Shown here: positions 3 through 20,784 of the stretch, in pieces
Position numbering within the stretch: position 1 is the stretch's first letter
Layout of the letters: the number at the start of each line of letters is the position of its first letter
IMG/VR virus record: IMGVR_UViG_3300021425_000050
Location: 1 to 54,498 of that record
Length of the DNA stretch: 54,498 nt
Reading direction: 5' to 3' (one strand)
Source: a virus
Lineage: Duplodnaviria; Caudoviricetes
Translations under genes and position numbers: made by a program
Notes under the pieces: generated by a model
The model's database searches: none
What the model saw: only the letters and a program-made list of their open reading frames with translations
What the model was told of the DNA's origin: nothing

Positions 3-2039
3 CCGCCGCCGCCACCGCCGCCGCCGATAGTTTTACCACCACCGCCGCCTCCACCGCCGCCGGTGCCACCCCCTGTGCCTCTGCCACCTTTACCAAGACC
101 GCCGCAAGCACCTCCGATTCCTATCGAGATTGCAAGACCAAGAAGAAGAAGGGCAATAGAAGAGAGAGGTTGGGGAGACCCATTAGCAGAATCATTCTTA
201 GTAGAAGCAGATGGTGGTATGATGTTAACATCAATAGACTTATACTTTAAATCTAAGTCTACTAACCTTCCTGTTTCTATAGAAGTTAGAAATATGGTCA
301 ATGGTTATCCAGGTCAAACTGTATTACCATTCTCTATAGTGACTAAGAATCCTGCTGATGTGAACATATCAGATGACGGTTCTGCTGTGACAACATTTAC
401 TTTTGAATCACCAGTATATGTTGAAGAAGGTGCTGAAATGTGTTTCGTAATCTACTCTAACTCAAATGATTACGAGTGCTTCATTTCTAGAATGGGCGAA
501 CAAGATTTAATTACAGGACAAACAATCTCAGGACAACCATATGCTGGTTCATTGTTCTTATCTCAGAATGCATCTACTTGGACTGCTGAACAAACAGACG
601 ACTTGAAATTTAATATGAAAGTCGCTAAGTTTGATACAACAGCACAAGGTAATGTTGTATTCGAAAACGAACATTTACCAGAAAGTAGATTACAACCAAA
701 CTCAGTAGAAGTTTATAGTAGTCAATCGTTTGTTAGAATCTATAACTACTCACATGGCATGTATGATACACAATCAAATGTCATCATATGGGGTGTCGAG
801 GGAGACAAATCAGGTTCAGCATTAACTGCATCAGGTAATTCTGGTACAGGTGCTGCCGCTGGAACTTACGATAACAGTGGTTCAAATCTCTATAACGATG
901 CTATCTACACTTTGAATGGTGATAGCACAGGTAAAGATTTAATCATTCATAGTTTTGTAGTAGATAACGATGGTAATATAACATCAGTTCAAATCGCAGA
1001 CCCAGGTGTTGGGTATGAAGTTGGCGATTCTATTACAATACCAAACTTTGATGGTAATGGTGCTAATGCTACCATAACAATTCAGTCAGTTGGAGATACA
1101 TTAGGTGGAATACCTGTCGATGCAATTAACGGACAGTATTCATCAATTACTAATTATGGAATAGATTCATTTAGTATAACACCCGATTTATCAGCATACA
1201 ATCTTTCATACACCAATGCAGTTCAATCAACAATAGGTGGTGGTGAAAATGCTTACATAACTAAAAACTTATATTATGATGTATTACATACTATGATACC
1301 TTCACTCTTGTTTAAAGGCACAAGCATGATTACAAGTTGCAGAAGAACAGGTATAAATGCGCCTGATGAAGGTTCACCTGCTTTAGATACTTCATATGTA
1401 ATGAGGTCAACAAACGACTTTATAACATTGAATGATAATGTATTCTTTGAGAGACCAAGTATTATCGCTTCTTCAATTAACGAACAAGAAGAAGTCACAG
1501 GTGGTCCAACTACCAAATCATTTGAAGCGAGATTACAATTACAAACAGTTAATCAAAATATATCACCTGTTATTGATGTTTCAACAATAGGGTGTATCGG
1601 AATCATGAACAGAATCAATGATATTGATTCGTCTGGTGACTTAGCAACAGAACTTGCTTATGTAGCTTCAACTGAACCTGATGGTGACAACAACGCAAAT
1701 GTTTATGTCACTAGAAAAGTTAATCTAAAGAATCCTGCAACTTCATTGAAAGTAATTGCAGATAACTTTAGACCTGCAGGTACAGATATCAAAGTTATGT
1801 ATAAGATATTGAAGAATGACGAAACAACACCTATTGATGACTTAGGGTTTGAATACTTTAATTCAACAGGTGGTCCAGATGTTGCAATCGAACAAGATGC
1901 AAGAAACTTTAAAGAATACGAATATACTGCTGACGGTCTACCAGAGTTCACAGGATTTGTTGTTAAGATTGTAGGTCAATCAGACAACACATCAATTGTG
2001 CCTCTAGTGTCAGCACTTAGATGTATCGCTCTCGCATAA
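3..2039 (+). CDS. Large virion structural protein, VrlC-like (C-terminal part; 5' end lies outside the window)
   Basis: Frame is open from base 3 (PPPPPPPPIVLPPPP...). Contains DPLAESF...LTSIDLYFKSK, GSLFLSQNASTWTAEQTDDLKF and a C-terminal FKEYEY...LRCIALA, motifs I recognise from VrlC-like proteins of marine T4-like phages. Lies upstream of the fibre genes. Confidence 0.75.
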   Translation, partial: PPPPPPPPIVLPPPPPPPPPVPPPVPLPPLPRPPQAPPIPIEIARPRRRRAIEERGWGDPLAESFLVEADGGMMLTSIDLYFKSKSTNLPVSIEVRNMVNGYPGQTVLPFSIVTKNPADVNISDDGSAVTTFTFESPVYVEEGAEMCFVIYSNSNDYECFISRMGEQDLITGQTISGQPYAGSLFLSQNASTWTAEQTDDLKFNMKVAKFDTTAQGNVVFENEHLPESRLQPNSVEVYSSQSFVRIYNYSHGMYDTQSNVIIWGVEGDKSGSALTASGNSGTGAAAGTYDNSGSNLYNDAIYTLNGDSTGKDLIIHSFVVDNDGNITSVQIADPGVGYEVGDSITIPNFDGNGANATITIQSVGDTLGGIPVDAINGQYSSITNYGIDSFSITPDLSAYNLSYTNAVQSTIGGGENAYITKNLYYDVLHTMIPSLLFKGTSMITSCRRTGINAPDEGSPALDTSYVMRSTNDFITLNDNVFFERPSIIASSINEQEEVTGGPTTKSFEARLQLQTVNQNISPVIDVSTIGCIGIMNRINDIDSSGDLATELAYVASTEPDGDNNANVYVTRKVNLKNPATSLKVIADNFRPAGTDIKVMYKILKNDETTPIDDLGFEYFNSTGGPDVAIEQDARNFKEYEYTADGLPEFTGFVVKIVGQSDNTSIVPLVSALRCIALA

Positions 2040-2236: not shown

Positions 2237-3828
2237 TGGCAAAAACAGTAGACAATTTTTCAACGATAGAAGAGTTTAGAAAGACTTATAACGACCTAGC
2301 ATTTGATGTCGGTGATGTCTCTGGTCTTCGAACATCATTAAAATCAGGCAATAATGATACACTTGTAGATGCAGTAAACTACTTAGAAGATAAAGCATTC
2401 TTTTTCCAAGAGTATGTATATTCTGCACCTGAACATAATATGAATGGTAAAGTTAGTTTTACAGGTGTTGATTCATTCGAAAACGATTTACTATTCAGAA
2501 AAGACAAGATTCAAGTATTCTTAAATGATAAACACTTAGTCGAAGATACAGACTTTATTATATCTTCGCCGACAGGAACAGGTGCTCATACAGAAATTAT
2601 CTTACAAGGGCCTTATGCAAGTGGTACAAACACAGGTGATAAACTATTCATCTATTCGTTCACAGGTTCATTTATCGGAACAAGTATCAACACTGAGTTA
2701 TCATCATTCTTTAACCAAACACCAGAGAATGCAATTTATAACTCTAACTCCGCAGGTGTAATTCTAAACGGTTCTAACTTAGGGGCAACAACTCTCTTAG
2801 AATCAGGTTATACTTTACAACTTGCAGGTCGAACATTTGCTGAAGACGATATAACGCTCGCTGCTAACAAAACATTAACAGCACCTATAATCACTGATGG
2901 TACTATGACAATACAGTCAGGTGCTATCTCAGGCGCTACAAACATCACTGCATCAGGCACTGTTCAAGCAGAACACATCTACACAACAGATGATTTACAA
3001 GTAGGCGATGACGCAACATTTGGTGGTGATGGAACATTTGGTGGTAACATAACAGTCACAGGTTCTGCTACTGTCGGTAGTTTAACATCAAATGGAAATG
3101 TATCAGGCACAAACGCAACCTTTACAGGAAATGTAGACTTAGGAAATGCAACTTCTGATACTATCACAATGACAGGTCGTGTAGATTCGCATATTGTTCC
3201 TAACAATACATCAAGAGATTTAGGTTCAAGCACTTTACCATGGCAGAATGTATATGCAAGTGACTTTACAGGAAACTTGACAGGTAATGTTGTCGGAGAT
3301 GTCACAGGTGATTTAACTGGTAATGTTTCTGGAACTGCAACACAGGCCGCTAACTTAAACAATCATGATACTACAGATTTAGCAGAAGGAAACAATCTCT
3401 ACTATACTAACGCAAGAGCAGACGCTAGAATTGCTGCCGCTAGTATCGAAGATTTATCAGATGTTCATACATTAGGAACACCAAGTGCAGGTCAGATACT
3501 TGCTTGGAACGCTTCAAACAATAGATTTGAAGTTCAAGACAATGCTACATCGTCAGGAAGTATTACTGAAACAACTAATAAATACTTGACAGACGATAGA
3601 GTAAACGCAATGATATCTGCTGGTTCAGGTCTTGCGAAGTCTTACAATGCAGGTGCTTCAGGCGACCCATTAGATGGTGTCGTTACCGTGTCAGTCAACA
3701 CATCAAACGGAATCAAATTAGATGGCGATGATGTAGAATTAGATTATGAAGTTGTAAGTTCGTCTTCTCTATCAGGAACACCTTCCGGTACAGGTAAAGA
3801 AATCGGACATATATGGTTTGTGATATGA
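2236..3828 (+). CDS. Tail fibre / fibre-like structural protein
   Basis: G/T/S/N-rich beta repeats (GNLTGNVVGDVTGDLTGNV), a DLAEGNNLYYTNARA module shared with 11204-13207, and a C-terminal PSGTGKEIGHIWF motif. Confidence 0.7.
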   Translation: MAKTVDNFSTIEEFRKTYNDLAFDVGDVSGLRTSLKSGNNDTLVDAVNYLEDKAFFFQEYVYSAPEHNMNGKVSFTGVDSFENDLLFRKDKIQVFLNDKHLVEDTDFIISSPTGTGAHTEIILQGPYASGTNTGDKLFIYSFTGSFIGTSINTELSSFFNQTPENAIYNSNSAGVILNGSNLGATTLLESGYTLQLAGRTFAEDDITLAANKTLTAPIITDGTMTIQSGAISGATNITASGTVQAEHIYTTDDLQVGDDATFGGDGTFGGNITVTGSATVGSLTSNGNVSGTNATFTGNVDLGNATSDTITMTGRVDSHIVPNNTSRDLGSSTLPWQNVYASDFTGNLTGNVVGDVTGDLTGNVSGTATQAANLNNHDTTDLAEGNNLYYTNARADARIAAASIEDLSDVHTLGTPSAGQILAWNASNNRFEVQDNATSSGSITETTNKYLTDDRVNAMISAGSGLAKSYNAGASGDPLDGVVTVSVNTSNGIKLDGDDVELDYEVVSSSSLSGTPSGTGKEIGHIWFVI

Positions 3829-3829
3829 T

Positions 3830-5593
3830 ATGGCAGATAAAATATACATTAAACACAATTTAGGGAACTTTAATCAACCTTACATCGCAAGGTCGACAGT
3901 TAATGCTCAAAACCCTATAATCGCTCAGCAGAATAGAAGACAACCTAGAATTCTACAAGTTCCTAGCACTTATCAAAATAGACAACCGAGCACCTATCGT
4001 GACCCTGTAAATGCTCAACAACCTAATATTAGAAATAAACAACATCCGTTTAATAGAAGTTATAGAACACCAAACGCAGTAAGTAATCAGGTTCCGTTTA
4101 CATACCCTACGATAGCACAACAACCTGCGACTTATCAACATCAGAGTCCAAGTATATACACTGCTCAGACTCAAATACCTAGTCAATATCAACATCAGAG
4201 TCCTTATATTACTAGAAGAAGTTATACTTTTCAAAGTCCAGCGATTTATCAACATCAATCGCCCTATACATTTCGTTCGCCAGGAACAGTGCAACAACCA
4301 GGTACTTATCAACATCAACAACCTGCTTCGTATGACCACAGAAGTCCTTATACTATACCTAAAACTTATAGTCATAGAACGCCTGTAAGTAGACAAAACT
4401 CTATTGCTAATCCTGTTATTAGACATAGAGATTATCAGAATCCTGTAAATTACCAGAATCCTGTAATTAGAGATAGACAGAGTCCAGTCATTGCACAATC
4501 ACCAACTCCAGTAATTATAGCAAACGGTAATGTAGGAACGACATATTATTACGGTGCTGGAAGAAATCGTATTAATAGTCCATTAGCAGCTACTAGAATT
4601 CCAAGTATAGTCACAGGAGCTCAAAGTCCTATGGCCCCCATGTCTTGGAATGCATATGGAATTTATAATCATCAATCAACTACTGTCTCAACTTATAATT
4701 CGCAGGTAGAACTTGCATTTAGATTAGATTGTAACTGGATTAACGGCAGTCCTTATTTCAATCTTTGGACAAAAAGAGGACCTACTGCAACTTCATCCCC
4801 TTATTCAAATGGAAGTTATTTCTGTTATGATGAGATAGATACTTCAACTGTTATGGGTTCAACAGCAGGTTGGTATATTGCTTCAAATTGGGATTTACCA
4901 TCATCGATGGTAAATAGTGGTAGTGGGTTTAAGATAAACATGATATTACAAGATTGGACGGGTTCTAGTGGAACAGTTTCAGGTATTCAACCTGTGACAT
5001 CGTTTGATTATTCACATACAAATATCAGTTATGGAACTGATATAAGTTCGTCAGTGGGAACTTCTGACCCAAGTAGTATTTGGACAGGTACTGGTACAGG
5101 TGCATCTGCCTTTATGACCAAAACTGTTAACGGTTCTCCTGGAACAACTTTTAACAACGCTGTAACTGCTGCTACAATATCATATCCAGCGGATCCAGGT
5201 GGTTCAGGCGCTCAAACAGCATCATCATTATCATGGGGTGTAAAAACAACAGCAATTAGAAATACAGGTGGTAATACAGCAACATTTACTAATAGTTCAA
5301 ACTTTGATATAATTGTGCAAATAGAATTAGAAGACCAACACACTTCTAATTCAAATGATTTACCATATCACTTAGTTAGAACAACTAATTTATTACAAAG
5401 AGTCACAACAGGCGGCGGCGGAGGAGGCGGTGGCGGGTTTACCCCATTCACTCCTACTTTCCAATCTTTCTATCAAGAGCCTCTCCAACAGGAAATTAAT
5501 AGATATAACCAGGACATAGAAAATAGATATACGCCGTTGGCCCCATCGGTTATAAATCCAACTATTAACGAATTCGACAGTGGTATACAATAA
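3830..5593 (+). CDS. Pro-punctuated repeat protein (zipper chain A1) with C-terminal Ser/Thr/Gly-rich domain and poly-Gly
   Basis: A 202-aa tract of 6-12 aa Pro-delimited units (3878-4483), then a long non-repetitive S/T/G/N-rich region and GGGGGGGGGF near the end. Confidence 0.7.
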   Translation: MADKIYIKHNLGNFNQPYIARSTVNAQNPIIAQQNRRQPRILQVPSTYQNRQPSTYRDPVNAQQPNIRNKQHPFNRSYRTPNAVSNQVPFTYPTIAQQPATYQHQSPSIYTAQTQIPSQYQHQSPYITRRSYTFQSPAIYQHQSPYTFRSPGTVQQPGTYQHQQPASYDHRSPYTIPKTYSHRTPVSRQNSIANPVIRHRDYQNPVNYQNPVIRDRQSPVIAQSPTPVIIANGNVGTTYYYGAGRNRINSPLAATRIPSIVTGAQSPMAPMSWNAYGIYNHQSTTVSTYNSQVELAFRLDCNWINGSPYFNLWTKRGPTATSSPYSNGSYFCYDEIDTSTVMGSTAGWYIASNWDLPSSMVNSGSGFKINMILQDWTGSSGTVSGIQPVTSFDYSHTNISYGTDISSSVGTSDPSSIWTGTGTGASAFMTKTVNGSPGTTFNNAVTAATISYPADPGGSGAQTASSLSWGVKTTAIRNTGGNTATFTNSSNFDIIVQIELEDQHTSNSNDLPYHLVRTTNLLQRVTTGGGGGGGGGFTPFTPTFQSFYQEPLQQEINRYNQDIENRYTPLAPSVINPTINEFDSGIQ

Positions 5594-5595
5594 AC

Positions 5596-6405
5596 ATGGC
5601 ACAGCAATATACAGTAAATACTAGGGCATCGTTTCAATCGTCTACGCCTGTGCAATATGGTCACAGAACTCCTGCAACTACAAGACAGCCTGCTATTCAA
5701 CCTTACGGTAATCAGGAACCATATCAGTCACCTTCTACTTACAGACACCCTGTAATTAGAAATTATGATATGAATAGACAACAACCTAATATTAGGAACT
5801 ACAGAATACCTTTAACAGATGTTGATTATCAAACAACTGTAGATTATCAACAACCAACTAGTGGCGGTGTTCCTTTTGATAGAAGTTATAGAACGCCTCT
5901 AACAGGTAGATATCCATTTGCAAATAGACAACCTAATATAAGAGATAGACAAACTCCTTCTCCTTATATTGCTAATAAACAGAATCCGTTTATCAGAAAT
6001 TATCAGAACCCATACGCTTATCAGGCAAGTGATAGACAACCTACAATTTATAATGCTCAAATAGCAGGTTCTTATCAACATCAATCTCCTTCTGAATATC
6101 AACATAGAAGTCCGTTCACTTATCAGAATCCTGTTAATGCTCAGAATCCTTATATTGCAAATGCACAATCGAATCAACCTTATCAGATTGTATATCAAGT
6201 TGCATATTCTTATAGAAGTCCGTCAACTTATCAGATTACATATAATAGTCAAAGACCCATTACGCAGGTTGCAGAAGCAAAAGCAATATACATCAAAGAC
6301 GCTGATGGTGTGGTAAAGAAAGTTAATAAGGCATATGTAAAAAATAATAGCACAGATGTAGAACAAATACATCAATCTATACCTTATCCTAATCTAAACA
6401 CTTAA
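5596..6405 (+). CDS. Pro-punctuated repeat protein (zipper chain B1, mirror partner of 3830-5593)
   Basis: A 203-aa repeat tract (5647-6255) and a C-terminal AIYIKDADGVVKKVNKAYVK motif. Starts 2 nt after the upstream stop. Confidence 0.7.
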   Translation: MAQQYTVNTRASFQSSTPVQYGHRTPATTRQPAIQPYGNQEPYQSPSTYRHPVIRNYDMNRQQPNIRNYRIPLTDVDYQTTVDYQQPTSGGVPFDRSYRTPLTGRYPFANRQPNIRDRQTPSPYIANKQNPFIRNYQNPYAYQASDRQPTIYNAQIAGSYQHQSPSEYQHRSPFTYQNPVNAQNPYIANAQSNQPYQIVYQVAYSYRSPSTYQITYNSQRPITQVAEAKAIYIKDADGVVKKVNKAYVKNNSTDVEQIHQSIPYPNLNT

Positions 6406-6409
6406 ATCG

Positions 6410-6417
6410 TATAAATA
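6410..6417 (+). promoter_or_regulatory. T4-type late (gp55) promoter TATAAATA
   Basis: Exact TATAAATA 5 nt upstream of ATG 6423. gp55 is encoded in the window. Confidence 0.75.
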
Positions 6418-6422
6418 GTTGT

Positions 6423-6755
6423 ATGGCTATTATCGCAAACTTATTCATAGACCAAGGAACAGACTTTAGTGTGACTGTTGATGTCACTGGTGCTGATGGT
6501 GAAATATTAAACCTGAATGGTTATACTGCTTCAGCACAAATAAGAAAAACATATTCATCATCTACAACTGCTGCTACATTCGCTACATCAATTGCAGAAG
6601 CATCAGGTCAAGTCACATTATCACTAACAGATACACAAACATCTGCTCTATCTCATGGAAGATATGTCTATGATATGAACATAACAAGTGGTGGCGGTCA
6701 AACAACAAGAGTTGTAGAAGGACAAGCTATCATAACACCAGGAGTCACACGATGA
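6423..6755 (+). CDS. Small virion structural protein (baseplate/fibre adaptor-like)
   Basis: NLFIDQGTDF...ASAQIRK...GRYVYD...RVVEG...TPGVT pattern common in T4-like marine phage structural regions. Confidence 0.65.
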   Translation: MAIIANLFIDQGTDFSVTVDVTGADGEILNLNGYTASAQIRKTYSSSTTAATFATSIAEASGQVTLSLTDTQTSALSHGRYVYDMNITSGGGQTTRVVEGQAIITPGVTR

Positions 6756-6997
6756 GCAATATCAAGGGAGTTGTTTCTAGGGTTGCTACAATAGGTGGTA
6801 AACTTTCTAACACAACAAATTTAAGGGCGAAACAAGTCGCAATAGGTAATTCATCTACAAATGTAAACTTGTCTGCTAAATCAATAAACGAACTTTCAGA
6901 TGTTGATGCAACAGAAACAGATGATGGACTTCTTTCATATGATGCCGCCACTGATAAGTGGACAACCACAACTATTTTAGACGGCGGAACATTTTAG
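6752..6997 (+). CDS. Small fibre-associated protein ending LDGGTF
   Basis: ATGA overlap with the upstream gene. Has an LSDVD...DGLLSYD...KW fibre motif and a C-terminal DGGTF. Confidence 0.6.
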   Translation: MSNIKGVVSRVATIGGKLSNTTNLRAKQVAIGNSSTNVNLSAKSINELSDVDATETDDGLLSYDAATDKWTTTTILDGGTF

Positions 6998-13239: not shown

Positions 13240-14859
13240 ATGGCAACAGGCTCACAGAAGGTAAAAACACCCTCAGGTTGGAATTCAACGCAAGGGGCAT
13301 GGGTAAAAACAGGAACATCAACTTGGAAGGCAGTCGACCAAATCTATGTGAAGACACCTTCTGGTTGGAATAATGCTTCTGGTCAAGAATCGGTTCAACA
13401 ACCGTATCCTTACATCGCAAATGCCCAAGAACCTAATATAAGAGATGCTCAACAACCTTATCCTTATATTGCAAATGCCCAAGAACCTAATATCAGAGAT
13501 GCTCAGCAACCTTATCCTTACATTGCGAATGCACAAAGTCCATTTATTAGAAACGGTCAACAACCTGCGATATATCAAAATCCGGTAAATGCACAAAGTC
13601 CATTTATTAGAAATGCTCAAGAACCGAACATAAGGTCAGCACAAGAACCTAATATTAGAAACGCACAAACACCGTTTACATATCAACACAGGTCACCTTT
13701 TACATACAGAGACCCAAGGTCATATAGAAATCCGTTTACATATCAACACAGGTCTCCATTTACATATCGAAACCCTGTAGATTATAGAGTGCCTTCGACT
13801 TATCAACACAGGTCACCTTCTACATATAGAGACCCAAGGTCATACAGAGTACCATTTACATATCAACACAGGTCTCCTTTTACATATAGAGACCCAAGGT
13901 CGTATAGAGTACCATTCACTTATAGTCACAGGTCGCCGTTTACATATCGAAACCCTGTTGGTTATAATATGCCGTTTACATATCAACACAGGTCGCCTTT
14001 CACATATCAGTCTAGACAACCTAACAGTGCAAGACAACCAGTTGCATACAGGTCACCGTTTACATATAGAAACCCTGTATCAGCACAACAACCAGTTGCA
14101 TTTAGGTCACCATTTACATACAGTGCTAGATATCCTGCTAACATTCAACAACCGGTAACATATCAGTCGCCGTTTACATACAGTGCTAGATATCCTGCAA
14201 ACGCTCAACAACCGAATAGTGCTAGACAACCTTTTACATATCAGGCAAGACAACCTGTTTATTTTCCACCCCCTCCAGGTGGCGGTTTCGGTTGTTTCCC
14301 TGCTGGGTCAATGGTCTGGTTGGCAGATGGTTCACATGTTGCTATCGAAACTGTCGAAGTTGGACAAAATGTTTGGACTTGGAACGAAGAACTCAATACA
14401 TTGGAAATCAATGCTGTCGAATACTGTATGAAACCAAGAGTTGTTTCAGTATGGGATATTTACTTATCAGATGGTAGAGTATTACAAACAACAGATGACC
14501 ACCCAATTAAGATTGCAGGTGTCGAAGGTTGGGGTGCTTTAAATCCTGAATTAACTGTAGAAAGACACGAATGGTTGTCAGATGATATGACACATACATT
14601 AGAAGTAGGAACTAGAATATTCACTATGACTGATGCAGTTCTATACGGTAAAGAATCAGAAGAAGTAGTAATAGAAAAAATAGAACAAAATGATGAAATG
14701 GTAGTGTATAACTTATCAGCGATTGCTAATACAGGAACATTCTTTGTTAACGGAGTTTTAGTTCATAACTACTATAACCCAATCACTGGTGAGTATGAAA
14801 ACACACCGAACTTGATGGAAGACAAATTAGACCCTGGTTTCACACCACTACCAAAATAG
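13240..14859 (+). CDS. Pro-punctuated repeat protein (zipper chain A2) with C-terminal Hint/BIL domain
   Basis: N-terminal VKTPSGW / WVK..W / YVKTPSGW motifs, 40 Pro-delimited units (13402-14253), then PPPPGGGFG and a CFPAG...VHN Hint domain. Confidence 0.8.
   Translation: MATGSQKVKTPSGWNSTQGAWVKTGTSTWKAVDQIYVKTPSGWNNASGQESVQQPYPYIANAQEPNIRDAQQPYPYIANAQEPNIRDAQQPYPYIANAQSPFIRNGQQPAIYQNPVNAQSPFIRNAQEPNIRSAQEPNIRNAQTPFTYQHRSPFTYRDPRSYRNPFTYQHRSPFTYRNPVDYRVPSTYQHRSPSTYRDPRSYRVPFTYQHRSPFTYRDPRSYRVPFTYSHRSPFTYRNPVGYNMPFTYQHRSPFTYQSRQPNSARQPVAYRSPFTYRNPVSAQQPVAFRSPFTYSARYPANIQQPVTYQSPFTYSARYPANAQQPNSARQPFTYQARQPVYFPPPPGGGFGCFPAGSMVWLADGSHVAIETVEVGQNVWTWNEELNTLEINAVEYCMKPRVVSVWDIYLSDGRVLQTTDDHPIKIAGVEGWGALNPELTVERHEWLSDDMTHTLEVGTRIFTMTDAVLYGKESEEVVIEKIEQNDEMVVYNLSAIANTGTFFVNGVLVHNYYNPITGEYENTPNLMEDKLDPGFTPLPK
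14293..14769 (+). other. Hint (intein-like/BIL) autoprocessing domain, 159 aa, no homing endonuclease
   Basis: Block A CFPAGSMVWLADG..IETVEVG, block B TTDDHP, block F VYNL and block G FFVNGVLVHN. The +1 residue is Tyr. Confidence 0.9.
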
Positions 14860-14876: not shown

Positions 14877-15809
14877 ATGCCAGATTTTCAATCACCTTAC
14901 ATTGCAAATGGTCAAAACCCATTTACATTTAGGGCCCCATTTACATATAGAGTTCCTTATATTGCGAATGCAAGACAACCAGTTGCATTTAGGTCACCGT
15001 TTACATATAGGGTCCCTTACATCGCTAATGCTCAGCAACCGAATACATACAGGTCACCTTTCACTTACAGAAACCCTGTAAATGCTCAACAACCTGTCAC
15101 ATTCCAATCACCGTTTACATTCCAATCACCTTATATTGCGAATGCTCAAGAACCGAATATCAGGTCAGCACAAACTCCAAGAGGATATCGTGTACCTGTT
15201 TCTGCTCAAGAACCGAATATTAGAAACGCTCAACAACCTGCTGGTTATAGATTACCTGTTAATGCTCAAGAACCGAATATCAGGTCAGCACAACAACCTG
15301 CTGGTTATAGATTGCCTGTTAATGCTCAAGAACCGAATATTAGAAACAGACAAACACCTGCAAAATATCAGAATCCAGTAAACGCTCAGGAACCTAATAT
15401 TAGAAACGCACAACAGCCTGCTGGTTATCAGCATCCTGTTTCTGCTCAACAACCTAATATTAGAGATGCAAGACAACCATCGACTTATCAACATAGGTCT
15501 CCGTTTACTTATAATCATAGGTCTCCATTTACTTATCAACATAGGTCTCCGTCTACATATAGAGACCCTGTAAGTTATAGAGTTCCATTTACATATCAAC
15601 ATAGAAGTCCTTCGACATATGCAACACAAGGTCAGACACCGTTTACATATCAACACAGGTCTCCTTTCACATATGCAAGACAAGGTCAAACACCGTTTAC
15701 CTATCAACATAGAAGTCCGTTTACATATGCAACACAAGGAAGAACACCAGTAATCCGTTGGGATGGTGATTTGAATCAAAATTGGCCAGGTACTCCAGTG
15801 TCGTCATAA
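14877..15809 (+). CDS. Pro-punctuated repeat protein (zipper chain B2, mirror partner of 13240-14859)
   Basis: Almost the whole protein is 40 Pro-delimited units (14895-15746). Confidence 0.8.
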   Translation: MPDFQSPYIANGQNPFTFRAPFTYRVPYIANARQPVAFRSPFTYRVPYIANAQQPNTYRSPFTYRNPVNAQQPVTFQSPFTFQSPYIANAQEPNIRSAQTPRGYRVPVSAQEPNIRNAQQPAGYRLPVNAQEPNIRSAQQPAGYRLPVNAQEPNIRNRQTPAKYQNPVNAQEPNIRNAQQPAGYQHPVSAQQPNIRDARQPSTYQHRSPFTYNHRSPFTYQHRSPSTYRDPVSYRVPFTYQHRSPSTYATQGQTPFTYQHRSPFTYARQGQTPFTYQHRSPFTYATQGRTPVIRWDGDLNQNWPGTPVSS

Positions 15810-15839: not shown

Positions 15840-17423
15840 ATGCAACAGATAGACCACGATATTATTTTAAAACTTTTTAGCGAAGACAGAGAAGACTGGA
15901 AAGAAAAACATTTCTATAAACACATCGGTTCGATGAATCTTAGTGAAGATTGGGAACAATCTACAACATGGAAAAATGTTTCATGGTTGTATGAAAATAG
16001 ATTACCTAAACTTAAAAAGGTGACATGGGGTGATGTTTCAAAACTTCAAAAAGAAGGCAAACTCATAGGTTGGAATCAACTACAATCTCAAGCATTCGGT
16101 TATCATTATTTCTTACCTTTAGGTTGGACTGCTAAACCTGAATTTCCAGCACCTGGTAAATCAGGTATGGATTTTATAAACATCAATGGTGAATATGAAA
16201 ATATTTGCAATCATGTAAGATTCGATGATGTAGATTATGAACCTGATGAAGGTAAAAAAGGCAATTTAGATTCAGTTTACTATCATGATGCCAAAGCACA
16301 TTGGTTAGTAGATAGTATTAGAAGAGATGGTCTTTGGAATCCTATTCAAGGTGTTGTAGCACCAGCACATGATGACAAGTATAAACTATCAATACACCCA
16401 GGTTCTGTAAGGTCACCTGTATTCGAATGTTTAGATGATGAATCTTTACAAATGTGGATATGGGATGATTACGATTTATTTGATTGGATACCTGAATATA
16501 CTTTACATACATTACTAACTGATTTATCTAATCACCCAAAAATGGGTCAAAGAGATATGGGTAAAAAGAATGTCTCTTTTGGATATACTCATGGTTATAT
16601 GGAGATATCTACTGAACTACAACAATTAACTTTTAGAAGTGATGTTTATGAATTCAATGAAAGAATTGCAAAAATGGCACAAGGTAAAAGAATAAACATC
16701 TACATTGGATATGATTCTCGTCATAAAGAAATTGCAGAATTAAACGCATGGACAATGTTGAAATCTATTCAACAAGGTTTTGGTGGGGGTGATGTTCATG
16801 GAACAATGAAACATTGGATACCTGAAATCAAATTCTTAGACATATCAAAGATACCAGAATATACTAGAGATTATGCTCAACAATCAACAGAGTTTACATA
16901 CAGTCGTTTCTTAATACCATACTTAGAAAACTACAAAGGGTTTAGTATTTTCTTAGATGATGATATACTTTTTACCAAGAGTATATTACCGATGTTCTAT
17001 TTCTTAAATCCAGATGATGCAGTTGCATGTATCAAATATGACTTTGAAAAACATAACGATACAAAGTTTGACGGTGAAAAGAATGTAAACTATCCTAAAA
17101 AATTATGGTCTTCATTAATGATATTTAATAACGGTCATGAAGATTGTAAGAAACTAACACCAGATGTAGTTAATACACAAACAGGAAAGTATCTACATCA
17201 ATTCGAATGGACAGATAAAATATCAGATATACCTCAACACTATATATTTACAGAAGGCTACGATACAGACGAATCAAGTTGGCGTCCATCTGCTATACAT
17301 TATACAAGAGGTGGTCCATGGATTGACAATATGGATACATCTAATATTGATAAACTTGATGAATACGAAAGATTGTATAATAAGTGGTTGAACTATAAAA
17401 AACAAAATGATATAATGGAGTGA
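15840..17423 (+). CDS. GT-A glycosyltransferase (GT8/CDI-like) fused to an N-terminal ParB/Srx-like region
   Basis: C-terminal half has IYIGYDSR, STEFTYSRFLIPYL, a DxD-type FLDDD, KLWSSLMIFN and HYTRGGPW. N-terminal half has LVDSIRRDGLWNPI...HPGSVR. Confidence 0.7.
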   Translation: MQQIDHDIILKLFSEDREDWKEKHFYKHIGSMNLSEDWEQSTTWKNVSWLYENRLPKLKKVTWGDVSKLQKEGKLIGWNQLQSQAFGYHYFLPLGWTAKPEFPAPGKSGMDFININGEYENICNHVRFDDVDYEPDEGKKGNLDSVYYHDAKAHWLVDSIRRDGLWNPIQGVVAPAHDDKYKLSIHPGSVRSPVFECLDDESLQMWIWDDYDLFDWIPEYTLHTLLTDLSNHPKMGQRDMGKKNVSFGYTHGYMEISTELQQLTFRSDVYEFNERIAKMAQGKRINIYIGYDSRHKEIAELNAWTMLKSIQQGFGGGDVHGTMKHWIPEIKFLDISKIPEYTRDYAQQSTEFTYSRFLIPYLENYKGFSIFLDDDILFTKSILPMFYFLNPDDAVACIKYDFEKHNDTKFDGEKNVNYPKKLWSSLMIFNNGHEDCKKLTPDVVNTQTGKYLHQFEWTDKISDIPQHYIFTEGYDTDESSWRPSAIHYTRGGPWIDNMDTSNIDKLDEYERLYNKWLNYKKQNDIME

Positions 17424-17977: not shown

Positions 17978-19222
17978 ATGAGAATTCTTGTAATTGCTAC
18001 CATTAGGTGTGGTGGAACTTATTTCGCCGAGTCAATTGCAAATAATCACAATTTAGATTACATACATGAACCAAAGTTTAAGAACTTAGGTGCAACAAAT
18101 AAAGATAATGTTGTTGTTAAAATTTTAACACATGCACCTTTTACAGACATAAAGAAGATTATCGAATACTCTAAAAACTTTGATAGAGTTTATGTGTTAG
18201 ATAGAAAGGATAAAGAAGAACAATTAAGGTCTGTTTATTCTCTCTATGAATATCCAAAAGAATCTGCTCATAGTAGTTATCATTGGGATGATTCTATGTT
18301 CGAAAAAGAGAACCCTAAAGATACAAAAGAAGAGTATGAATCATGGATAAATAAATTTACTGAACAAGTAAATACAATTGCTTCTATCTTAAATAAAGAT
18401 ATTCTATATTATGAAGACTTGTATTACGGTAAAGTTGAATTAAAAGATATAAAGTTTATGCCAGATACATCTGAAAGATTAAGAAAAGAACCTATAAAGA
18501 TAGAGTATAAAGATAGTCCTTTCAATGTAAAAGACTTACCCTTAGATAGAGTTTATGTATTCGATAATTACTTAGAAAATTCTCTTTGGAAATTTATAGA
18601 TAAACAACTAACTCAATCATCTACATGGGCGAAAACAAATCAAGTAAATTCACAACATAAGACAGGTTTACCTCATCATAGTTTTTGGGGAACATCTATT
18701 CTAAGAGCAGATGAACATGGTAATGGATACTTAGATTATGATGCAGGTTGGACTGAATCATCAGGTGCATTGTTTAGATGGTTCAATAGAAGAATATGCA
18801 CCGACTTTGGGTTTAAATGGAAAAGATTTCAGTATATGGGTACGAATAGTCAAACCCAAGGACTAGAAGGCACAACTCATGCAGATTGCCAAAAAGATGA
18901 TGAATGGAATCTATCATTTCTATATTATTACAATAGTTATTGGAATGAAGAATGGGGTGGTGATTTAAGATTCTATGATGATGTTCCACAACATGGTCGT
19001 ATGGGTCGTGAAGAACATATAAAGAATCATCAAATCGGAAGTGTTGAGTTTGTTCCGAATAGACTTATAATGTTTGACGGTAGAATACCCCATGGTGCAG
19101 ATGCCCCTAATAGTAAAGCAAGATATATGGACAGAAGGTCTATTGTATTGAGAGGAGATGAAGTTCAACTAGTAGACGAGGAGGAAATGTTTAATGCCAA
19201 CGATAGATTTTACAACATTTAA
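17978..19222 (+). CDS. Sulfotransferase-like N-domain fused to 2OG-Fe(II) oxygenase
   Basis: N-terminus has ILVIATIRCGGTY...HEP...YYED (RSG(T/S)T/HEP-like). C-terminus has HxD (THAD), WGGDLRFY, PNRLIMFDGRIPH and a distal R. Confidence 0.65.
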   Translation: MRILVIATIRCGGTYFAESIANNHNLDYIHEPKFKNLGATNKDNVVVKILTHAPFTDIKKIIEYSKNFDRVYVLDRKDKEEQLRSVYSLYEYPKESAHSSYHWDDSMFEKENPKDTKEEYESWINKFTEQVNTIASILNKDILYYEDLYYGKVELKDIKFMPDTSERLRKEPIKIEYKDSPFNVKDLPLDRVYVFDNYLENSLWKFIDKQLTQSSTWAKTNQVNSQHKTGLPHHSFWGTSILRADEHGNGYLDYDAGWTESSGALFRWFNRRICTDFGFKWKRFQYMGTNSQTQGLEGTTHADCQKDDEWNLSFLYYYNSYWNEEWGGDLRFYDDVPQHGRMGREEHIKNHQIGSVEFVPNRLIMFDGRIPHGADAPNSKARYMDRRSIVLRGDEVQLVDEEEMFNANDRFYNI

Positions 19223-20114
19223 TGAAGACTCGTTAAGAGATTTCAAACCTGTTTTAGCAAAGACATATGCACCTGATTGGTGGAAATCAGCGAAGGTTTG
19301 GAACACTGTTAGAGGTCGTCACATACAAACAATTCGTGCCTGCCCAGCTATGGACGATTGGTTGAAGTCTGGTTGGTATATACTTGCAAATAGAGACATG
19401 GAAGTATGTTTTGGTTCAAGTAAAGATGATAAGAATAGTAAGATATCTTTTACACAGGACCCCGAATGGGATTATCAAAAAAGAAGAAGAAAAGGTCTGC
19501 CAGAAGAAGGTGAAGGCCCAAATACATCTGGTTATCCTGTATATCATTCACCATCTCACCCAGCAGAACAATTCTATCATTCATTCAAATACTTACCTGA
19601 TGAAGAATCACCTGTAAGAGATGCATTCAAAATGAGAAGTGCTTGGAATATCAAAACGCCACCAGGTTATTCGTGTTTTTATCTTGACCCATTTTTATTT
19701 CAGAACGAACACTTTGCTGTGTGGCAAGGTATAATTGATACAGACTCATTCAACACTAACTATGACAATTCTCAAATCATTCTCTATCCAAGACATAGTA
19801 AAGATTTCATAATTAAAAAAGGAACACCTTTAGTTCAGATTATACCTTATAAAAGAGAAAATTGGGTTGCAACATATCAATGTATGACCGAAGAAAGTTG
19901 GCAGACTAGTCGTAGTCACATTACAAATGAACATAAAAATTTAACAATGGATGAATGGGGTAGAACAAAATATGATATGTCAATGGAAAGAGTAAACCCA
20001 ACATTAGGTCCATACAGAAACGAAGGTTATTGGCAAGAAAAAGGTAAGATGTTTAAAGAAGATGGACCGCCACCTGAATGTCCATTTCACAAAGGGGGAG
20101 AAGATGACAGTTAA
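19194..20114 (+). CDS. Conserved phage hypothetical protein (DUF6065-like) found in oxygenase clusters
   Basis: TIRACPAM.D....GW, W.IKTPPGYS, GIIDTD and IKKGTPLVQIIP motifs. Confidence 0.55.
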   Translation: MPTIDFTTFNEDSLRDFKPVLAKTYAPDWWKSAKVWNTVRGRHIQTIRACPAMDDWLKSGWYILANRDMEVCFGSSKDDKNSKISFTQDPEWDYQKRRRKGLPEEGEGPNTSGYPVYHSPSHPAEQFYHSFKYLPDEESPVRDAFKMRSAWNIKTPPGYSCFYLDPFLFQNEHFAVWQGIIDTDSFNTNYDNSQIILYPRHSKDFIIKKGTPLVQIIPYKRENWVATYQCMTEESWQTSRSHITNEHKNLTMDEWGRTKYDMSMERVNPTLGPYRNEGYWQEKGKMFKEDGPPPECPFHKGGEDDS

Positions 20115-20784
20115 AAAATTATTTCCAACATATGTCTTCGAATGGGATTTTCTAGGAGAAGATAGCAACGAGTTGATGACACCTGAATATTTTAGATTGC
20201 TTAGAGAAGAAATGGACGCTATGAGAAGAAGAGACCCTGTAGGTCGTAGTGTGTCAAATGCTTATACAGGTTGGCAATCAAACGATAGAGTTGATGATAA
20301 TCCTATCTTTCAAAAATGTATTAGACAAATTAAGAAAAAGGTCAGAGAAGAGATTGGTCCAACATTGGGCATGAAGAACACAACAGTCAATTTTCACAAT
20401 GCTTGGGCAAACATTAATGATAATTTGGCATGGAACAAACCACATTTACACAATGGTTGTATGTATTCAGGCGCTTTTTATATACAAGGCGATGGTGATG
20501 AAGGTCATTTTATAGCAATAGATACTGATTATAAGTTTGTTGGAAATGTTCCTAGAAGTCAATCTGTTGTTAGAGAATCTTATAGTATTGCACCTAAAAC
20601 AGGTTTTTTAATAATGTTTCCGAGTGGTCTAATGCATATGGTCGAACCAAATCCTACTCAGAAAGATAGATATAGTATTTCATTCAATTTAGACTTTGAT
20701 GGTGATAGAAGCGAAGAAAATAATAACTCCAGTTTATCATATAAAATCAAAGACAAATACGGTAATCTTGCAATTAACGAGTAA
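20104..20784 (+). CDS. 2OG-Fe(II) oxygenase (TIGR02466-like)
   Basis: WANIN...NKPHLH...SGAFYI...FPSGLMHMVEPN...RYSISFN. ATG 20104 follows the SD-like GGGGGAG. Confidence 0.8.
   Translation: MTVKKLFPTYVFEWDFLGEDSNELMTPEYFRLLREEMDAMRRRDPVGRSVSNAYTGWQSNDRVDDNPIFQKCIRQIKKKVREEIGPTLGMKNTTVNFHNAWANINDNLAWNKPHLHNGCMYSGAFYIQGDGDEGHFIAIDTDYKFVGNVPRSQSVVRESYSIAPKTGFLIMFPSGLMHMVEPNPTQKDRYSISFNLDFDGDRSEENNNSSLSYKIKDKYGNLAINE

What the first reader, a model, noticed from the sequence alone, without database searches (positions are those of the whole stretch)
3878..6255. A second, more diverged mirror pair obeys the same rule
Seen in sequence: A1 (3878-4483, 202 aa) and reversed B1 (5647-6255, 203 aa) keep register when units with gained or lost prolines are summed: 12/12, 24/24, 6,6,8, 16/16, 10,8,10,8,12,8,6, 14 versus 15 (one-residue bulge), 8,12,10,10,6,8. 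The code recurs: PSTYRD/PVNAQN, PVNAQQ/PFTYQN, PNIRNKQH/PSEYQHRS, PATYQHQS/PFIRNYQN, PSQYQHQS/PNIRDRQT, PASYDHRS/PNIRNYRI and PVIRDRQS/PVQYGHRT. Its unit series differs from pair 2. Inference: each pair has its own barcode, which would limit cross-pairing of A1/B2 or A2/B1. Recurrence in a second locus makes coincidence very unlikely.
Basis: partly seen in the sequence, partly recalled or inferred. Interest (0 to 1): 0.88.

Follow-up and report, generated by a model that had tools for sequence, protein, structure and literature searches.

The report
Two-gene mirror-coded phage fibre duplex
Two neighbouring genes of an uncultured marine T4-like phage encode proline-punctuated repeat proteins whose repeat order in one is the exact reverse, and the chemical complement, of the other, which most likely means that the two chains zip together head-to-tail into a long thin fibre of a kind not described before.

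Summary
A proline-only local alignment of A1 (3830-5593) against reversed B1 (5596-6405) matches 21 prolines over 225 columns with one gap. It scores 105 against 51.9 +/- 6.7 for unit-shuffled B1 (0 of 300 reach it).

The unit code also holds. A pairing matrix learnt only from pair-2-type loci scores pair 1 above every one of 2000 shuffles, for each of two nulls.

The rule is general:
- 45 of 46 distinct adjacent pairs from IMG/VR, and 4 of 4 further type-1 pairs, are mirrored.
- Arrays span about 130-560 residues.
- 8-residue Tyr-type units face Ile-type units in 646 of 707 cases.
- Between diverged phages, indels in A recur with equal size at the mirror site of B. One locus shows a reciprocal unit-type swap.

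Best reading: A and B pair antiparallel, residue by residue, into an extended beta-type two-chain rod of the tail-fibre module. The conserved caps lie at one end and a variable tip at the other. The pair-specific unit order fixes register and partner. No structure or binding data exist, and complex prediction gave no answer. I found no annotation or literature.

The parts
3830..5593 (+). Gene A1 (587 aa): N-terminal cap, repeat array, then a C-terminal beta-rich domain.
   Evidence: ORF list. No Pfam or PHROG family. Six homologues in 5.8 billion clusters for aa 225-587.
3830..3877 (+). A1 N-terminal cap (aa 1-16, MADKIYIKHNLG...). It faces the B1 C-terminal cap in the mirror alignment.
   Evidence: ADKIYI lies opposite the reversed B1 stretch DADKIYI. 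The same motif class (M-A/S-D/E-x-I-Y/F-I/V) occurs in 8 type-1 A proteins.
3878..4483 (+). A1 repeat array (aa 17-218, 202 aa; the mirror alignment runs over 3830-4501).
4502..5590 (+). A1 C-terminal domain (aa 225-587), proposed distal tip. It holds a conserved poly-Gly run at 5411-5437.
   Evidence: P0004-P0006 are 38-40% identical to this domain, while their first ~30 residues equal A1's and the proximal array looks far better conserved than that, by eye. AlphaFold2 gave mean pLDDT 31, so there is no usable model.
5596..6405 (+). Gene B1 (269 aa). It starts 2 nt after the A1 stop codon.
5647..6255 (+). B1 repeat array (aa 18-220, 203 aa). It is the mirror partner of the A1 array, with one extra residue (bulge) in unit PLTDVDYQTTVDYQQ.
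6256..6402 (+). B1 C-terminal cap (aa 221-269), with two strand-like motifs, AIYIKD (6283-6300) and KAYVKNN (6328-6348), and QIHQSIP.
   Evidence: Conserved in type-1 B proteins of other genomes.
13240..14859 (+). Gene A2 (539 aa). N-cap aa 1-54 (13240-13401), array aa 55-342 (13402-14265), PPPPGGGFG linker, and a Hint/BIL-like domain at aa 352-510 (14293-14769).
14877..15809 (+). Gene B2 (310 aa). Array aa 2-290 (14880-15746) and conserved C-cap PVIRWDGDLNQNWPGTPVSS (15747-15806).

Best explanation
A1/B1 (and A2/B2) are the two chains of an obligate heteromeric fibre. I propose the following model.

1. The adjacent genes are probably translationally coupled, and their products associate antiparallel and in register along the whole repeat array. 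Residue i of A lies opposite residue c-i of B.
2. Prolines mark the unit borders and face each other. Between them, 6- and 8-residue units obey a binary code. A Tyr-type unit (P-F-T-Y-x-x-R-x or P-F-T-Y-R-x) always faces an Ile/Ala-type unit (P-N/Y-I-R/A-N-A-Q-x or P-V-N-A-Q-x). This puts Tyr opposite Ala, Arg opposite Ile or Asn, and Thr opposite Gln.
3. Nearly all proline spacings are even, and covariation links only same-parity positions. The chains are therefore most likely extended beta strands, forming a two-chain ribbon that may bundle further (for example into a trimer).
4. If fully extended, the rods would be roughly 70 nm (pair 1) to 180 nm (the longest relatives).
5. The aperiodic order of units acts as an address. 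It fixes a single register and favours the cognate partner over the second pair made in the same cell.
6. A's conserved N-cap and B's conserved C-cap end up at the same (proximal, virion-attached) end. A's variable C-terminal domain and B's N-terminus form the distal tip, which presumably binds the host.

What is shown: mirror register, the code, compensatory evolution, and genomic context. What is inferred: physical pairing, beta conformation, stoichiometry, and a role as a host-recognition fibre.
For: 1. Mirror register in the window.
- Pair 1 scores 105 against a null of 51.9 +/- 6.7 (0 of 300).
- Pair 2 matches 40 of 41 prolines ungapped.

2. Generality.
- Among 46 distinct complete adjacent pairs from 80 IMG/VR loci, the reversed alignment beats the forward one in 45, and 41 have at most 1 gap.
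- The alignment covers a median 98% of B and matches a median 95% of B's prolines.
- Four more type-1 pairs give z = 4.2-12.6.

3. Code. The alignments used prolines only, yet of 707 clean 8-mer unit pairs 646 are Tyr-type/Ile-type (3 Tyr/Tyr, 13 Ile/Ile). Of 546 6-mers, 334 are Tyr/Ala-type, 62 Tyr/Tyr and 0 Ala/Ala.

4. Compensatory evolution.
- Between diverged loci, indels in A recur with the same size at the mirror site of B. Examples: +18/+18; +16/+16; +44 and -8; 36, 10, 2 and 24; 26, -14 and 16.
- Ordered indel lists are exact reversals, for example A [-18, -28, -38, -60] against B [-60, -38, -28, -18].
- Of 34 lists with several events, 6 are exactly reversed and 0 exactly forward.
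- Point changes co-locate in mirror columns (L026/L036: 7 of 27; odds ratio 11; p = 5e-5).
- In type-1 loci L068/L071 one A unit switches from Ile-type to Tyr-type while the facing B unit switches from Tyr-type to Ile-type.

5. Geometry.
- Proline spacings are even in 1877 of 1905 (A) and 1673 of 1724 (B) cases.
- Within Tyr/Ile 8-mer pairs, covariation is confined to even positions that face each other or lie diagonally in the antiparallel register. A partner shuffle reaches the observed value in 0 of 300 trials.

6. Ends. A's N-terminus and B's C-terminus are the conserved parts. The substitution profiles correlate at r = 0.95 in mirror order and -0.33 in forward order.

7. No DNA-level cause. 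Only one weak inverted repeat was found, of 31 nt at 71% complementarity.

8. Context.
- The pairs lie among fibre-like genes and an LtfC-like gene, upstream of baseplate and tail genes.
- Array lengths of A and B correlate at r = 0.91, n = 38.
- The gap between A and B is -1 to 51 nt in 24 of 38 non-redundant loci.
Against: - There is no direct evidence that the proteins bind, and none on their conformation, stoichiometry or presence in virions.
- The two structure attempts on this pair gave nothing usable: AlphaFold2 of the A1 tip domain reached mean pLDDT 31.
- Strict automated matching of indels (equal size within 30 residues of the mirror site) succeeds for only 73 of 186 events. Ordered lists share 93 events with reversed B against 66 with forward B. 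Gap placement inside uniform repeats is ambiguous, and the 61 comparisons are not phylogenetically independent.
- Five near-identical loci (L015, L022, L051, L052, L070) carry uncompensated indels of 18-88 residues. These are either assembly collapse or tolerated mismatch.
- One locus, L079, is not mirrored.
- Pair 1 matches only 21 of 26-27 prolines.
- Neither face of a simple two-stranded ribbon would be clearly hydrophobic, so the real assembly may be more complex.
Confidence: 0.72

Rival explanations
1. A and B do pair antiparallel, but not as a plain two-stranded ribbon. Each P-delimited unit could be one rung or side of a larger beta-solenoid, a triple beta-helix or a six-chain (A3B3) bundle, as in other trimeric phage fibres.
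For: Phage fibres are as a rule trimeric beta structures (own knowledge). Some blocks have 20-residue super-repeats of 8+6+6, which would suit a three-sided solenoid. Neither ribbon face is hydrophobic.
Against: Unit-by-unit equality of length and strict proline-proline facing over up to 548 residues without a gap. Covariation of directly facing even positions. Both are most simply explained by continuous strand-to-strand pairing. Unit order is aperiodic in pair 1.
Confidence: 0.18
2. A and B do not touch each other. Both lie, in opposite directions, along a third polar template (another fibre protein, the tail, or a host polymer), and the template imposes the mirrored order.
For: It would also give a mirror order and equal lengths. 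Several other fibre-like proteins are encoded nearby.
Against: The template would have to change length by the same 2-132 residues each time the arrays do. Two different templates per virion would be needed. The code is complementary (Tyr-type opposite Ile/Ala-type, 646 of 707) rather than identical, whereas binding one common template predicts like opposite like. Reciprocal unit swaps fit direct contact.
Confidence: 0.04
3. The mirror pattern comes from composition, chance or a mutational mechanism (slippage, or recombination between the two paralogous arrays), without selection for pairing.
For: Both genes are built from the same few unit types and share many short direct DNA repeats. Arrays are clearly prone to slippage, as shown by uncompensated indels among near-identical contigs. 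Forward alignments are also slightly above null (8 of 300).
Against: Unit-shuffled nulls that keep composition and unit lengths never reach the observed scores. No mechanism copies DNA into a same-strand gene in reversed codon order with complementary unit types, and no inverted DNA repeat exists. A against reversed A, and B against reversed B, are not significant.
Confidence: 0.02
4. The arrays are flexible, possibly hydroxylated or glycosylated low-complexity 'hairs' or adhesive polymers. The mirror order only reflects weak multivalent sticker contacts, not a defined rod.
For: The composition is rich in Pro, Gln, Asn, Tyr and Arg with almost no Leu, Lys or Met and no Cys. Four 2OG-Fe(II) oxygenase genes lie in the window and a GT8-like gene lies directly downstream of pair 2. 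Structure predictors give no confident fold.
Against: Multivalent sticker systems tolerate register shifts. Here register is kept to the residue over hundreds of positions and restored after every indel.
Confidence: 0.04

Closest known systems
Antiparallel coiled-coil arms of SMC, Rad50 and MukB (own knowledge; PMC4345284 seen only in a search listing)
   Same: Two long segments run antiparallel and in register. Their lengths co-vary, and a globular element sits at the far end. If A and B were one chain, array-domain-array would copy this plan.
   Different: Those arms are alpha-helical heptad repeats within one chain. Here a proline every 6-8 residues excludes helices, the chains are separate gene products, and pairing follows a two-letter unit code.
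Spectrin alpha/beta heterodimer (own knowledge)
   Same: Two different repeat proteins associate side by side and antiparallel, with specific repeats pairing.
   Different: Spectrin repeats are 106-residue three-helix domains. Here the units are 6-8 residues, and the whole length is residue-registered.
T4-type long tail fibres and the adenovirus/reovirus triple beta-spiral shafts (own knowledge; PMC3004832 and PMC5537660 seen in a search listing only)
   Same: Genomic place in the fibre module of a T4-like phage. Thin repetitive beta-type shaft with Pro or Gly at repeat borders. Conserved proximal and variable distal parts. In relatives with a globular tip, a small ORF sits next to the tip-bearing gene, as a fibre chaperone gene would.
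   Different: Those shafts are parallel homotrimers of one gene product. There is no sequence or profile similarity. No known fibre uses two chains of reversed, complementary repeat order.
Tandem beta-zipper of bacterial fibronectin-binding proteins, and tryptophan-zipper hairpins (own knowledge)
   Same: An extended chain pairs as an antiparallel strand along a partner over many consecutive short motifs. At the caps, like residues face each other: Trp opposite Trp in pair 2 and Tyr opposite Tyr in pair 1.
   Different: In the beta-zipper one partner is a string of folded domains and the length is tens of residues, not 200-550.
Nucleic-acid duplex (analogy only)
   Same: Antiparallel and complementary. 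Compensatory 'pair flips' occur, indels are compensated on the other strand, and specificity is set by sequence order.
   Different: It is a protein. The alphabet consists of 6- and 8-residue units. Nothing suggests templated copying.
Hint / bacterial intein-like (BIL) domains (for the A2 tip only)
   Same: Cys at the start, T-x-x-H and a terminal His-Asn are present. There are weak matches to Pfam Hint/Intein_splicing and to PDB 2lwy and 8w20.
   Different: Scores lie below Pfam's cut-offs. The +1 residue is Tyr, so canonical splicing is not expected. Many relatives lack the domain.

Membership tests
Mirror-pair fibre family defined here (type 1, with type 2 = pair 2) | Adjacent same-strand genes A then B, each with a Pro-punctuated array of even-length units | tested here: met
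   A1/B1 are 2 nt apart. All 26 spacings between successive prolines of the A1 array, including the one to the next proline, are even. In the B1 array all but one are even, the exception being the 15-residue unit. Family-wide, 97-98.5% are even.
Mirror-pair fibre family defined here | Proline register of A equals that of reversed B, above a unit-shuffle null | tested here: met
   105 against 51.9 +/- 6.7; 0 of 300 shuffles reach it.
Mirror-pair fibre family defined here | Tyr-type units face Ile/Ala-type units | tested here: met
   5 of 6 single 8-mer slots and 2 of 4 single 6-mer slots in pair 1 are complementary. The matrix test gives 0 of 2000 for each of two nulls.
Mirror-pair fibre family defined here | Type-1 caps: A N-terminus M-A/S-D/E-x-I-Y/F-I/V; B C-terminus with two I/V-Y/F-I/V-K/N strands and K-I-H-Q | tested here: met
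   MADKIYIK in A1; AIYIKD, KAYVKNN and QIHQSIP in B1. The same caps occur in L068, L071, L078 and L091-L094.
T4-like long tail fibre proteins (gp34-gp37) | Sequence or profile similarity to known fibre families | tested here: not met
   No Pfam or PHROG family for A1 or B1. No tblastn match in 50,697 GenBank phage records.
T4-like long tail fibre proteins (gp34-gp37) | Parallel homotrimer | not testable with these tools
   Stoichiometry is unknown. The complex prediction gave no answer.
Collagen-like phage fibre proteins | Gly at every third residue | tested here: not met
   Gly makes up 2.7% of the arrays, and the periods are 6 and 8.
Antiparallel coiled coil | Heptad repeats compatible with an alpha helix | tested here: not met
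   A proline every 6-8 residues; Leu 0.5%.
Curli subunits CsgA/CsgB (considered because pelagimyophages carry csgF/csgG; PMC7029224, passages read) | Curlin repeat profile; location in the csgF/G cluster | tested here: not met
   No Pfam curlin hit. The paper places its curli cluster between the replication and structural modules, not in the fibre region. No signal peptide is evident by eye, but this was not tested with a predictor.
Trappin cementoin repeat (PF10511) | Pfam score above the gathering cut-off | tested here: inconclusive
   B2 scores 28.7 bits against a cut-off of 27. A2 scores 17.5. A1 and B1 have no hit. I judge it a compositional match to a short Pro/Gln-rich repeat. Lys, the transglutaminase partner, makes up 0.4% of the arrays.
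Hint / BIL domain (A2 only) | N-terminal Cys, T-x-x-H, and C-terminal His-Asn | tested here: met
   C352, T418-D-D-H421, and H509-N510.
Hint / BIL domain (A2 only) | Profile score above Pfam cut-offs; a +1 Cys/Ser/Thr for splicing | tested here: not met
   Hint scores 24.1 bits (cut-off 29.7) and Intein_splicing 21.8 (cut-off 35.8). The +1 residue is Tyr.

The most novel reading that the evidence does not exclude
These phages encode a sequence-addressable 'protein duplex'. Two chains are built from a small alphabet of 6- and 8-residue units that pair antiparallel by a complementarity rule (Tyr-type with Ile/Ala-type, proline with proline). One chain is therefore the 'reverse complement' of the other. 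The unit order sets register, partner choice and rod length (about 70-180 nm). Evolution proceeds by compensated indels and pair flips, as in RNA helices. It would be a new principle of fibrous-protein assembly and a natural template for programmable protein nanorods.
Probability: 0.55. Interest if true: 0.95.

Novelty: categorically new. Interest (0 to 1): 0.9.

Why it matters
If the two chains really zip antiparallel by a unit code, this is a fibrous-protein architecture with no described counterpart. Specificity and length would be written in the order of short modules, much as in nucleic-acid duplexes.

- It would explain a widespread family of unnamed marine phage proteins. There are 324 clusters at E <= 1e-10 for B2 alone, none carrying a name beyond 'hypothetical protein' among the 120 listed.
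- The family sits in the host-recognition region of abundant ocean myophages.
- It would show how two similar fibres can be built in one cell without mispairing.
- It would give protein designers a natural, evolvable rule set for heterodimeric beta rods of chosen length.
- The comparative signal (compensatory indels, pair flips) is strong enough that the hypothesis can be tested directly with two recombinant proteins.

Tried and rejected
- Semi-global alignment with a log-odds mirror matrix and free end gaps gave trivial scores (2.8 against a null of 3.6). I dropped it for the proline-only alignment plus a separate code test.
- Complex prediction on A1 aa 1-232 with B1: score 0.00, verdict 'no answer', controls not run. 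This is no evidence either way.
- AlphaFold2 of the A1 C-terminal domain with a 7-sequence alignment: mean pLDDT 31, unusable.
- A DNA-level cause: the repeat finder found only one weak inverted repeat. Proline codons cannot be each other's reverse complement. Rejected.
- Self-pairing: A against reversed A and B against reversed B are not above null, except B2 weakly (11 of 500).
- Fused A+B proteins ('Rosetta stone'): the search for longer proteins found 57, the longest 695 aa. Of the 178 proteins stored, 0 carry both caps. The tool itself calls this weak evidence.
- Cultured relatives: no tblastn match for B2 or A1 in GenBank phages. BLAST's low-complexity filter may hide the arrays, but not the A1 tip domain.
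- PDB by sequence and the ESM Atlas (best score 0.85, below the lead threshold) gave nothing.
- A1 tip domain in IMG/VR: only two near-identical loci.
- Small ORF between A and B in relatives: no Pfam or PHROG family and no Foldseek match in PDB or BFVD at E <= 0.001.
- Literature: six full-text searches found no description of such pairs. PMC7029224 (passages read) describes the fibre-bearing hypervariable region and a curli-like cluster of pelagimyophages, but not these proteins. PMC13730344 (passages read) describes a different kind of two-protein fibre (dimers on a rope protein).
- Supplements are closed, so tables of protein clusters in those papers were not seen.
Full report
**What the window is.** The window is a whole IMG/VR record of 54,498 bases, estimated about 30% complete. 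All long ORFs lie on the + strand. Its major capsid protein (32488-33798) is 64-65% identical to those of Methylophilales phage Melnitz and Pelagibacter phage HTVC008M. It is therefore an uncultured marine T4-like myophage.

The first 16 kb hold fibre-like ORFs rich in Gly, Ser and Thr, and an LtfC-like beta-sandwich ORF (6423-6755). That ORF is the only part of 3500-6800 with DNA similarity to a cultured phage, HTVC008M, where it is annotated 'L-shaped tail fiber protein assembly'. Further downstream lie a tail-sheath-stabiliser gene (gp15-like) and other virion and replication genes. The region matches the 'host recognition cluster' described for pelagimyophages (PMC7029224, passages read).

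**The objects.** Four ORFs carry arrays of short units that each begin with proline:
- A1, 3830-5593 (587 aa)
- B1, 5596-6405 (269 aa)
- A2, 13240-14859 (539 aa)
- B2, 14877-15809 (310 aa)

None of the arrays matches a Pfam or PHROG family, apart from a borderline, probably compositional, cementoin hit in B2 and A2.

**Checking the observation.**
- As an unbiased test I used a Smith-Waterman alignment that scores only proline against non-proline, on whole proteins. A1 aa 1-224 aligns with reversed B1 aa 13-237, with 21 facing prolines and a single one-residue gap, and scores 105.
- Shuffling the order of B1's own units gives 51.9 +/- 6.7 (maximum 79; 0 of 300 reach 105). The forward orientation gives 64.25.
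- Pair 2 is cleaner: 40 of 41 B2 prolines coincide with A2 prolines without any gap (null 16.3 +/- 2.5; 0 of 500).
- A against its own reverse, and the non-cognate combinations, are at or near null.
- Contigs from other sequencing runs cover the pair-1 arrays, so they are not an artefact of one assembly.

**The code.** In the pair-2 alignment PFTYQHRS lies opposite PNIRNAQQ (read backwards), PFTYRD opposite PVNAQE, and PRSYRV opposite PAGYRL. A pairing matrix learnt only from pair-2-type loci, with proline columns left out, scores the pair-1 alignment at -31.6. Residue shuffles give -235.8 +/- 27.6, and swapping B1 units among slots of the same length gives -92.6 +/- 17.5. None of 2000 trials reaches the observed score under either null, and sliding by 2 or 4 columns destroys it. 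So the second, more diverged pair does obey the same rule.

**Survey of relatives.**
- Searching IMG/VR with B2 and B1 gave 80 loci. These hold 46 distinct complete adjacent pairs.
- The reversed alignment beats the forward one in 45 of 46; the exception is L079, whose two ORFs are 906 nt apart. It has at most one gap in 41 of 46.
- It covers a median 98% of B and matches a median 95% of B's prolines. In L023, for example, 71 of 73 B prolines match over 548 residues with no gap.
- Arrays range from about 130 to 560 residues. Their lengths in A and B, measured independently as proline runs, correlate with r = 0.91 (n = 38).
- Five of five large contigs (58-83% complete) carry two clusters of such genes about 10 kb apart, as the window does.
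- The second cluster in four of those contigs is a type-1 pair, and each is mirrored (z = 4.2, 12.6, 6.0, 6.7).
- There are two types. Type 2 has a conserved A N-terminus (MATGSQKVKTPSGWN...QIYVKTPTGWNN) and a conserved B C-terminus (TPVIRWDG..Q.WPGTPVSS). Type 1, the subject of this finding, has MADKIYIK-like A N-termini, and B C-termini with two IYVK/IYVN-like strands and KIHQS.

**Family-wide code.** The alignments used prolines only, yet the classes pair as follows:
- Of 707 clean 8-residue unit pairs, 646 are Tyr-type opposite Ile-type, 3 are Tyr/Tyr and 13 are Ile/Ile.
- Of 546 6-residue pairs, 334 are Tyr-type opposite Ala-type, 62 are Tyr/Tyr (the Gly-Tyr kind) and 0 are Ala/Ala.

Consensus units are P-F-T-Y-Q/N-H/N-R-S/Q and P-N/Y-I-R/A-N/S-A-Q/R-Q/E. 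This places Thr3 opposite Gln7, Tyr4 opposite Ala6, and Arg7 opposite Ile3.

**Compensatory evolution.**
- Between diverged loci, every array indel that I inspected by hand in eight comparisons has a counterpart of equal size near the mirror-predicted site. Examples are L041/L035 (+18/+18), L045/L023 (+16/+16), L021/L055 (+44 and -8), L055/L017 (36, 10, 2, 24), L025/L017 (26, -14, 16), L017/L027 (76, -16) and L029/L035 (-12, -2, +2, -2).
- An automated count is less tidy. Of 186 merged A events in 61 (non-independent) comparisons, 73 have an equal-size B event within 30 residues of the mirror site. Ordered event lists share 93 events with the reversed B list against 66 with the forward list. 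Of 34 multi-event lists, 6 are exact reversals and 0 are exact forward copies. Gap placement in uniform repeat blocks is ambiguous, which accounts for much of the shortfall: events of the same size often appear in reversed order but displaced, as in L009/L053.
- Uncompensated indels occur only between otherwise ~100% identical loci (L015, L022, L051, L052, L070). They are either recent or assembly collapse.
- Point substitutions co-locate in facing columns. For L026/L036, 7 of 27 do (odds ratio 11; p = 5e-5). For L035/L043, 3 of 20 do (p = 0.08). For L068/L071, 15 of 57 do (p = 0.2).
- In the type-1 pair L068/L071, one whole A unit changes from Ile-type to Tyr-type while the facing B unit changes from Tyr-type to Ile-type. 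This is the protein analogue of a base-pair flip.

**Geometry.**
- Proline-to-proline spacings are even in 98.5% (A) and 97.0% (B) of cases, so all prolines share one parity, as on one edge or face of an extended strand.
- Within Tyr/Ile 8-mer pairs (285 distinct), mutual information is confined to even positions that face each other or lie diagonally in the antiparallel register: 2-8, 2-6, 6-4, 6-2, 8-2 and 8-4, at 0.5-1.1 bits. A partner shuffle reaches the observed value in 0 of 300 trials.
- Odd positions are nearly invariant, so they cannot show covariation.
- At the caps, like faces like: ADKIYI against the reverse of B1's ...AIYIKDAD, and TPSGWN against the reverse of B2's NWPGTP.
- I read this as antiparallel beta pairing. 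It remains an inference.

**Polarity.**
- A's N-terminus and B's C-terminus are the conserved ends. Between the window-like locus L001 and L035, change profiles correlate at 0.95 in mirror order and -0.33 in forward order.
- The other end varies. A may stop right after the array, or carry a Hint/BIL-like domain (as A2 does), or carry an unrelated domain of about 150 residues. In that last case, one or two ORFs of 85-100 codons lie between A and B in all 13 such non-redundant loci.
- Type-1 A proteins carry larger domains of 161-358 residues beyond the array; A1's is the largest, at 363 aa from residue 225. Homologues P0004-P0006 are 38-40% identical over that domain, yet share A1's first ~30 residues exactly, and the proximal array is by eye far better conserved than the tip.
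- A conserved proximal end with a variable distal end is the usual pattern of receptor-binding fibres (own knowledge).

**Mechanism proposed.** The two chains are made from adjacent, probably translationally coupled genes. The gap is 2 nt in pair 1 and 17 nt in pair 2, and -1 to 51 nt in 24 of 38 non-redundant loci. The chains zip antiparallel into a registered rod. The aperiodic unit order allows only one register and favours the cognate partner: in three genomes, cognate z = 6-18 against non-cognate z = 0.6-6.9. Because B's N-terminus pairs with the last-made part of A's array, zipping could start there as B emerges from the ribosome; this is speculation.

**Comparison with what is known.** It works like an antiparallel coiled-coil arm or the spectrin heterodimer, in that two antiparallel partners match in length. 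In its evolutionary signature it works like a nucleic-acid helix. But it fails the defining features of coiled coils, collagen, curli and the known fibre families (see the membership table). No match or name was found in:
- Pfam or PHROGs for the arrays, apart from the cementoin hit
- 50,697 GenBank phage records
- the PDB by sequence
- the names attached to the 120 listed of 324 related protein clusters
- six literature searches

I therefore rate it categorically new. The caveat is that its structure is inferred from sequence covariation alone. Neither attempt to model the window's pair 1 produced a usable model.

Noticed in passing
window 14293-14769 (A2 aa 352-510): A Hint/BIL-like self-processing domain follows the A2 array after PPPPGGGFG. 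Cys352, T-D-D-H (418-421) and His509-Asn510 are present, and the +1 residue is Tyr. In the antiparallel model it sits beside the N-terminus of B2, so self-cleavage or even ligation at the fibre tip is conceivable. Many relatives lack the domain.
   Followed up: partly
L035:3692-3976 and the like in L009, L023, L029, L041, L043-L045, L052, L053, L057: Where a type-2 A protein carries a globular tip of 143-179 residues that is not Hint-like, one or two ORFs of 85-100 codons lie between A and B. AlphaFold2 gives a confident model (pLDDT 93.3). There is no Pfam or PHROG family and no Foldseek match in PDB or BFVD. It may be a tip chaperone.
   Followed up: partly
window 15840-17423; 17978-19222; 20062-20784; 35161-35835; 42880-43545: A GT8-like glycosyltransferase gene lies directly downstream of pair 2, scoring below Pfam's cut-off. 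Four 2OG-Fe(II) oxygenase genes are present, three of the prolyl-hydroxylase-like PF13640 type. Hydroxylation or glycosylation of the Pro-, Asn- and Tyr-rich arrays is an open possibility.
   Followed up: no
L015, L022, L051, L052, L070 (compared with L021, L027, L049, L045): Loci that are otherwise ~100% identical differ by uncompensated array indels of 18-88 residues in only one chain, or of unequal size in the two (L049/L051). These are either repeat collapse in assembly or standing variation that selection later removes.
   Followed up: partly
L068 and L071, mirror-alignment columns 251-258: A reciprocal unit-type swap. The A unit changes from Ile-type to Tyr-type while the facing B unit changes from Tyr-type to Ile-type.
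   Followed up: yes
window 3953-4498 (-), 5899-6198 (-), 13318-13620 (-), 15285-15779 (-): Long antisense ORFs (99-181 aa) lie over all four arrays. I take them as a by-product of codon composition (almost no Leu, few TCA codons), not as genes.
   Followed up: no
window 5411-5437 (A1 aa 528-536): A run of nine glycines near the end of A1. Five of them are invariant in the seven-sequence alignment. It is followed by a conserved FTPFTPxFQSFYQEP motif.
   Followed up: no
window 3-160: The ORF cut by the window start (3-2039) begins with a long poly-proline stretch (PPPPPPPPIVLPPPPPPPPPVPPPVPLPP...).
   Followed up: no
window 14877-15809 (B2) and 13240-14859 (A2): Pfam cementoin (PF10511, the trappin transglutaminase-substrate repeat) passes its cut-off in B2 (28.7 against 27 bits). 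This is probably compositional, because the arrays hold almost no lysine.
   Followed up: partly
window 6423-6755: An LtfC-like beta-sandwich ORF lies just downstream of B1. It is the only part of 3500-6800 with DNA similarity (67.7%) to a cultured phage, HTVC008M, where it is annotated as an L-shaped tail fiber assembly protein.
   Followed up: partly
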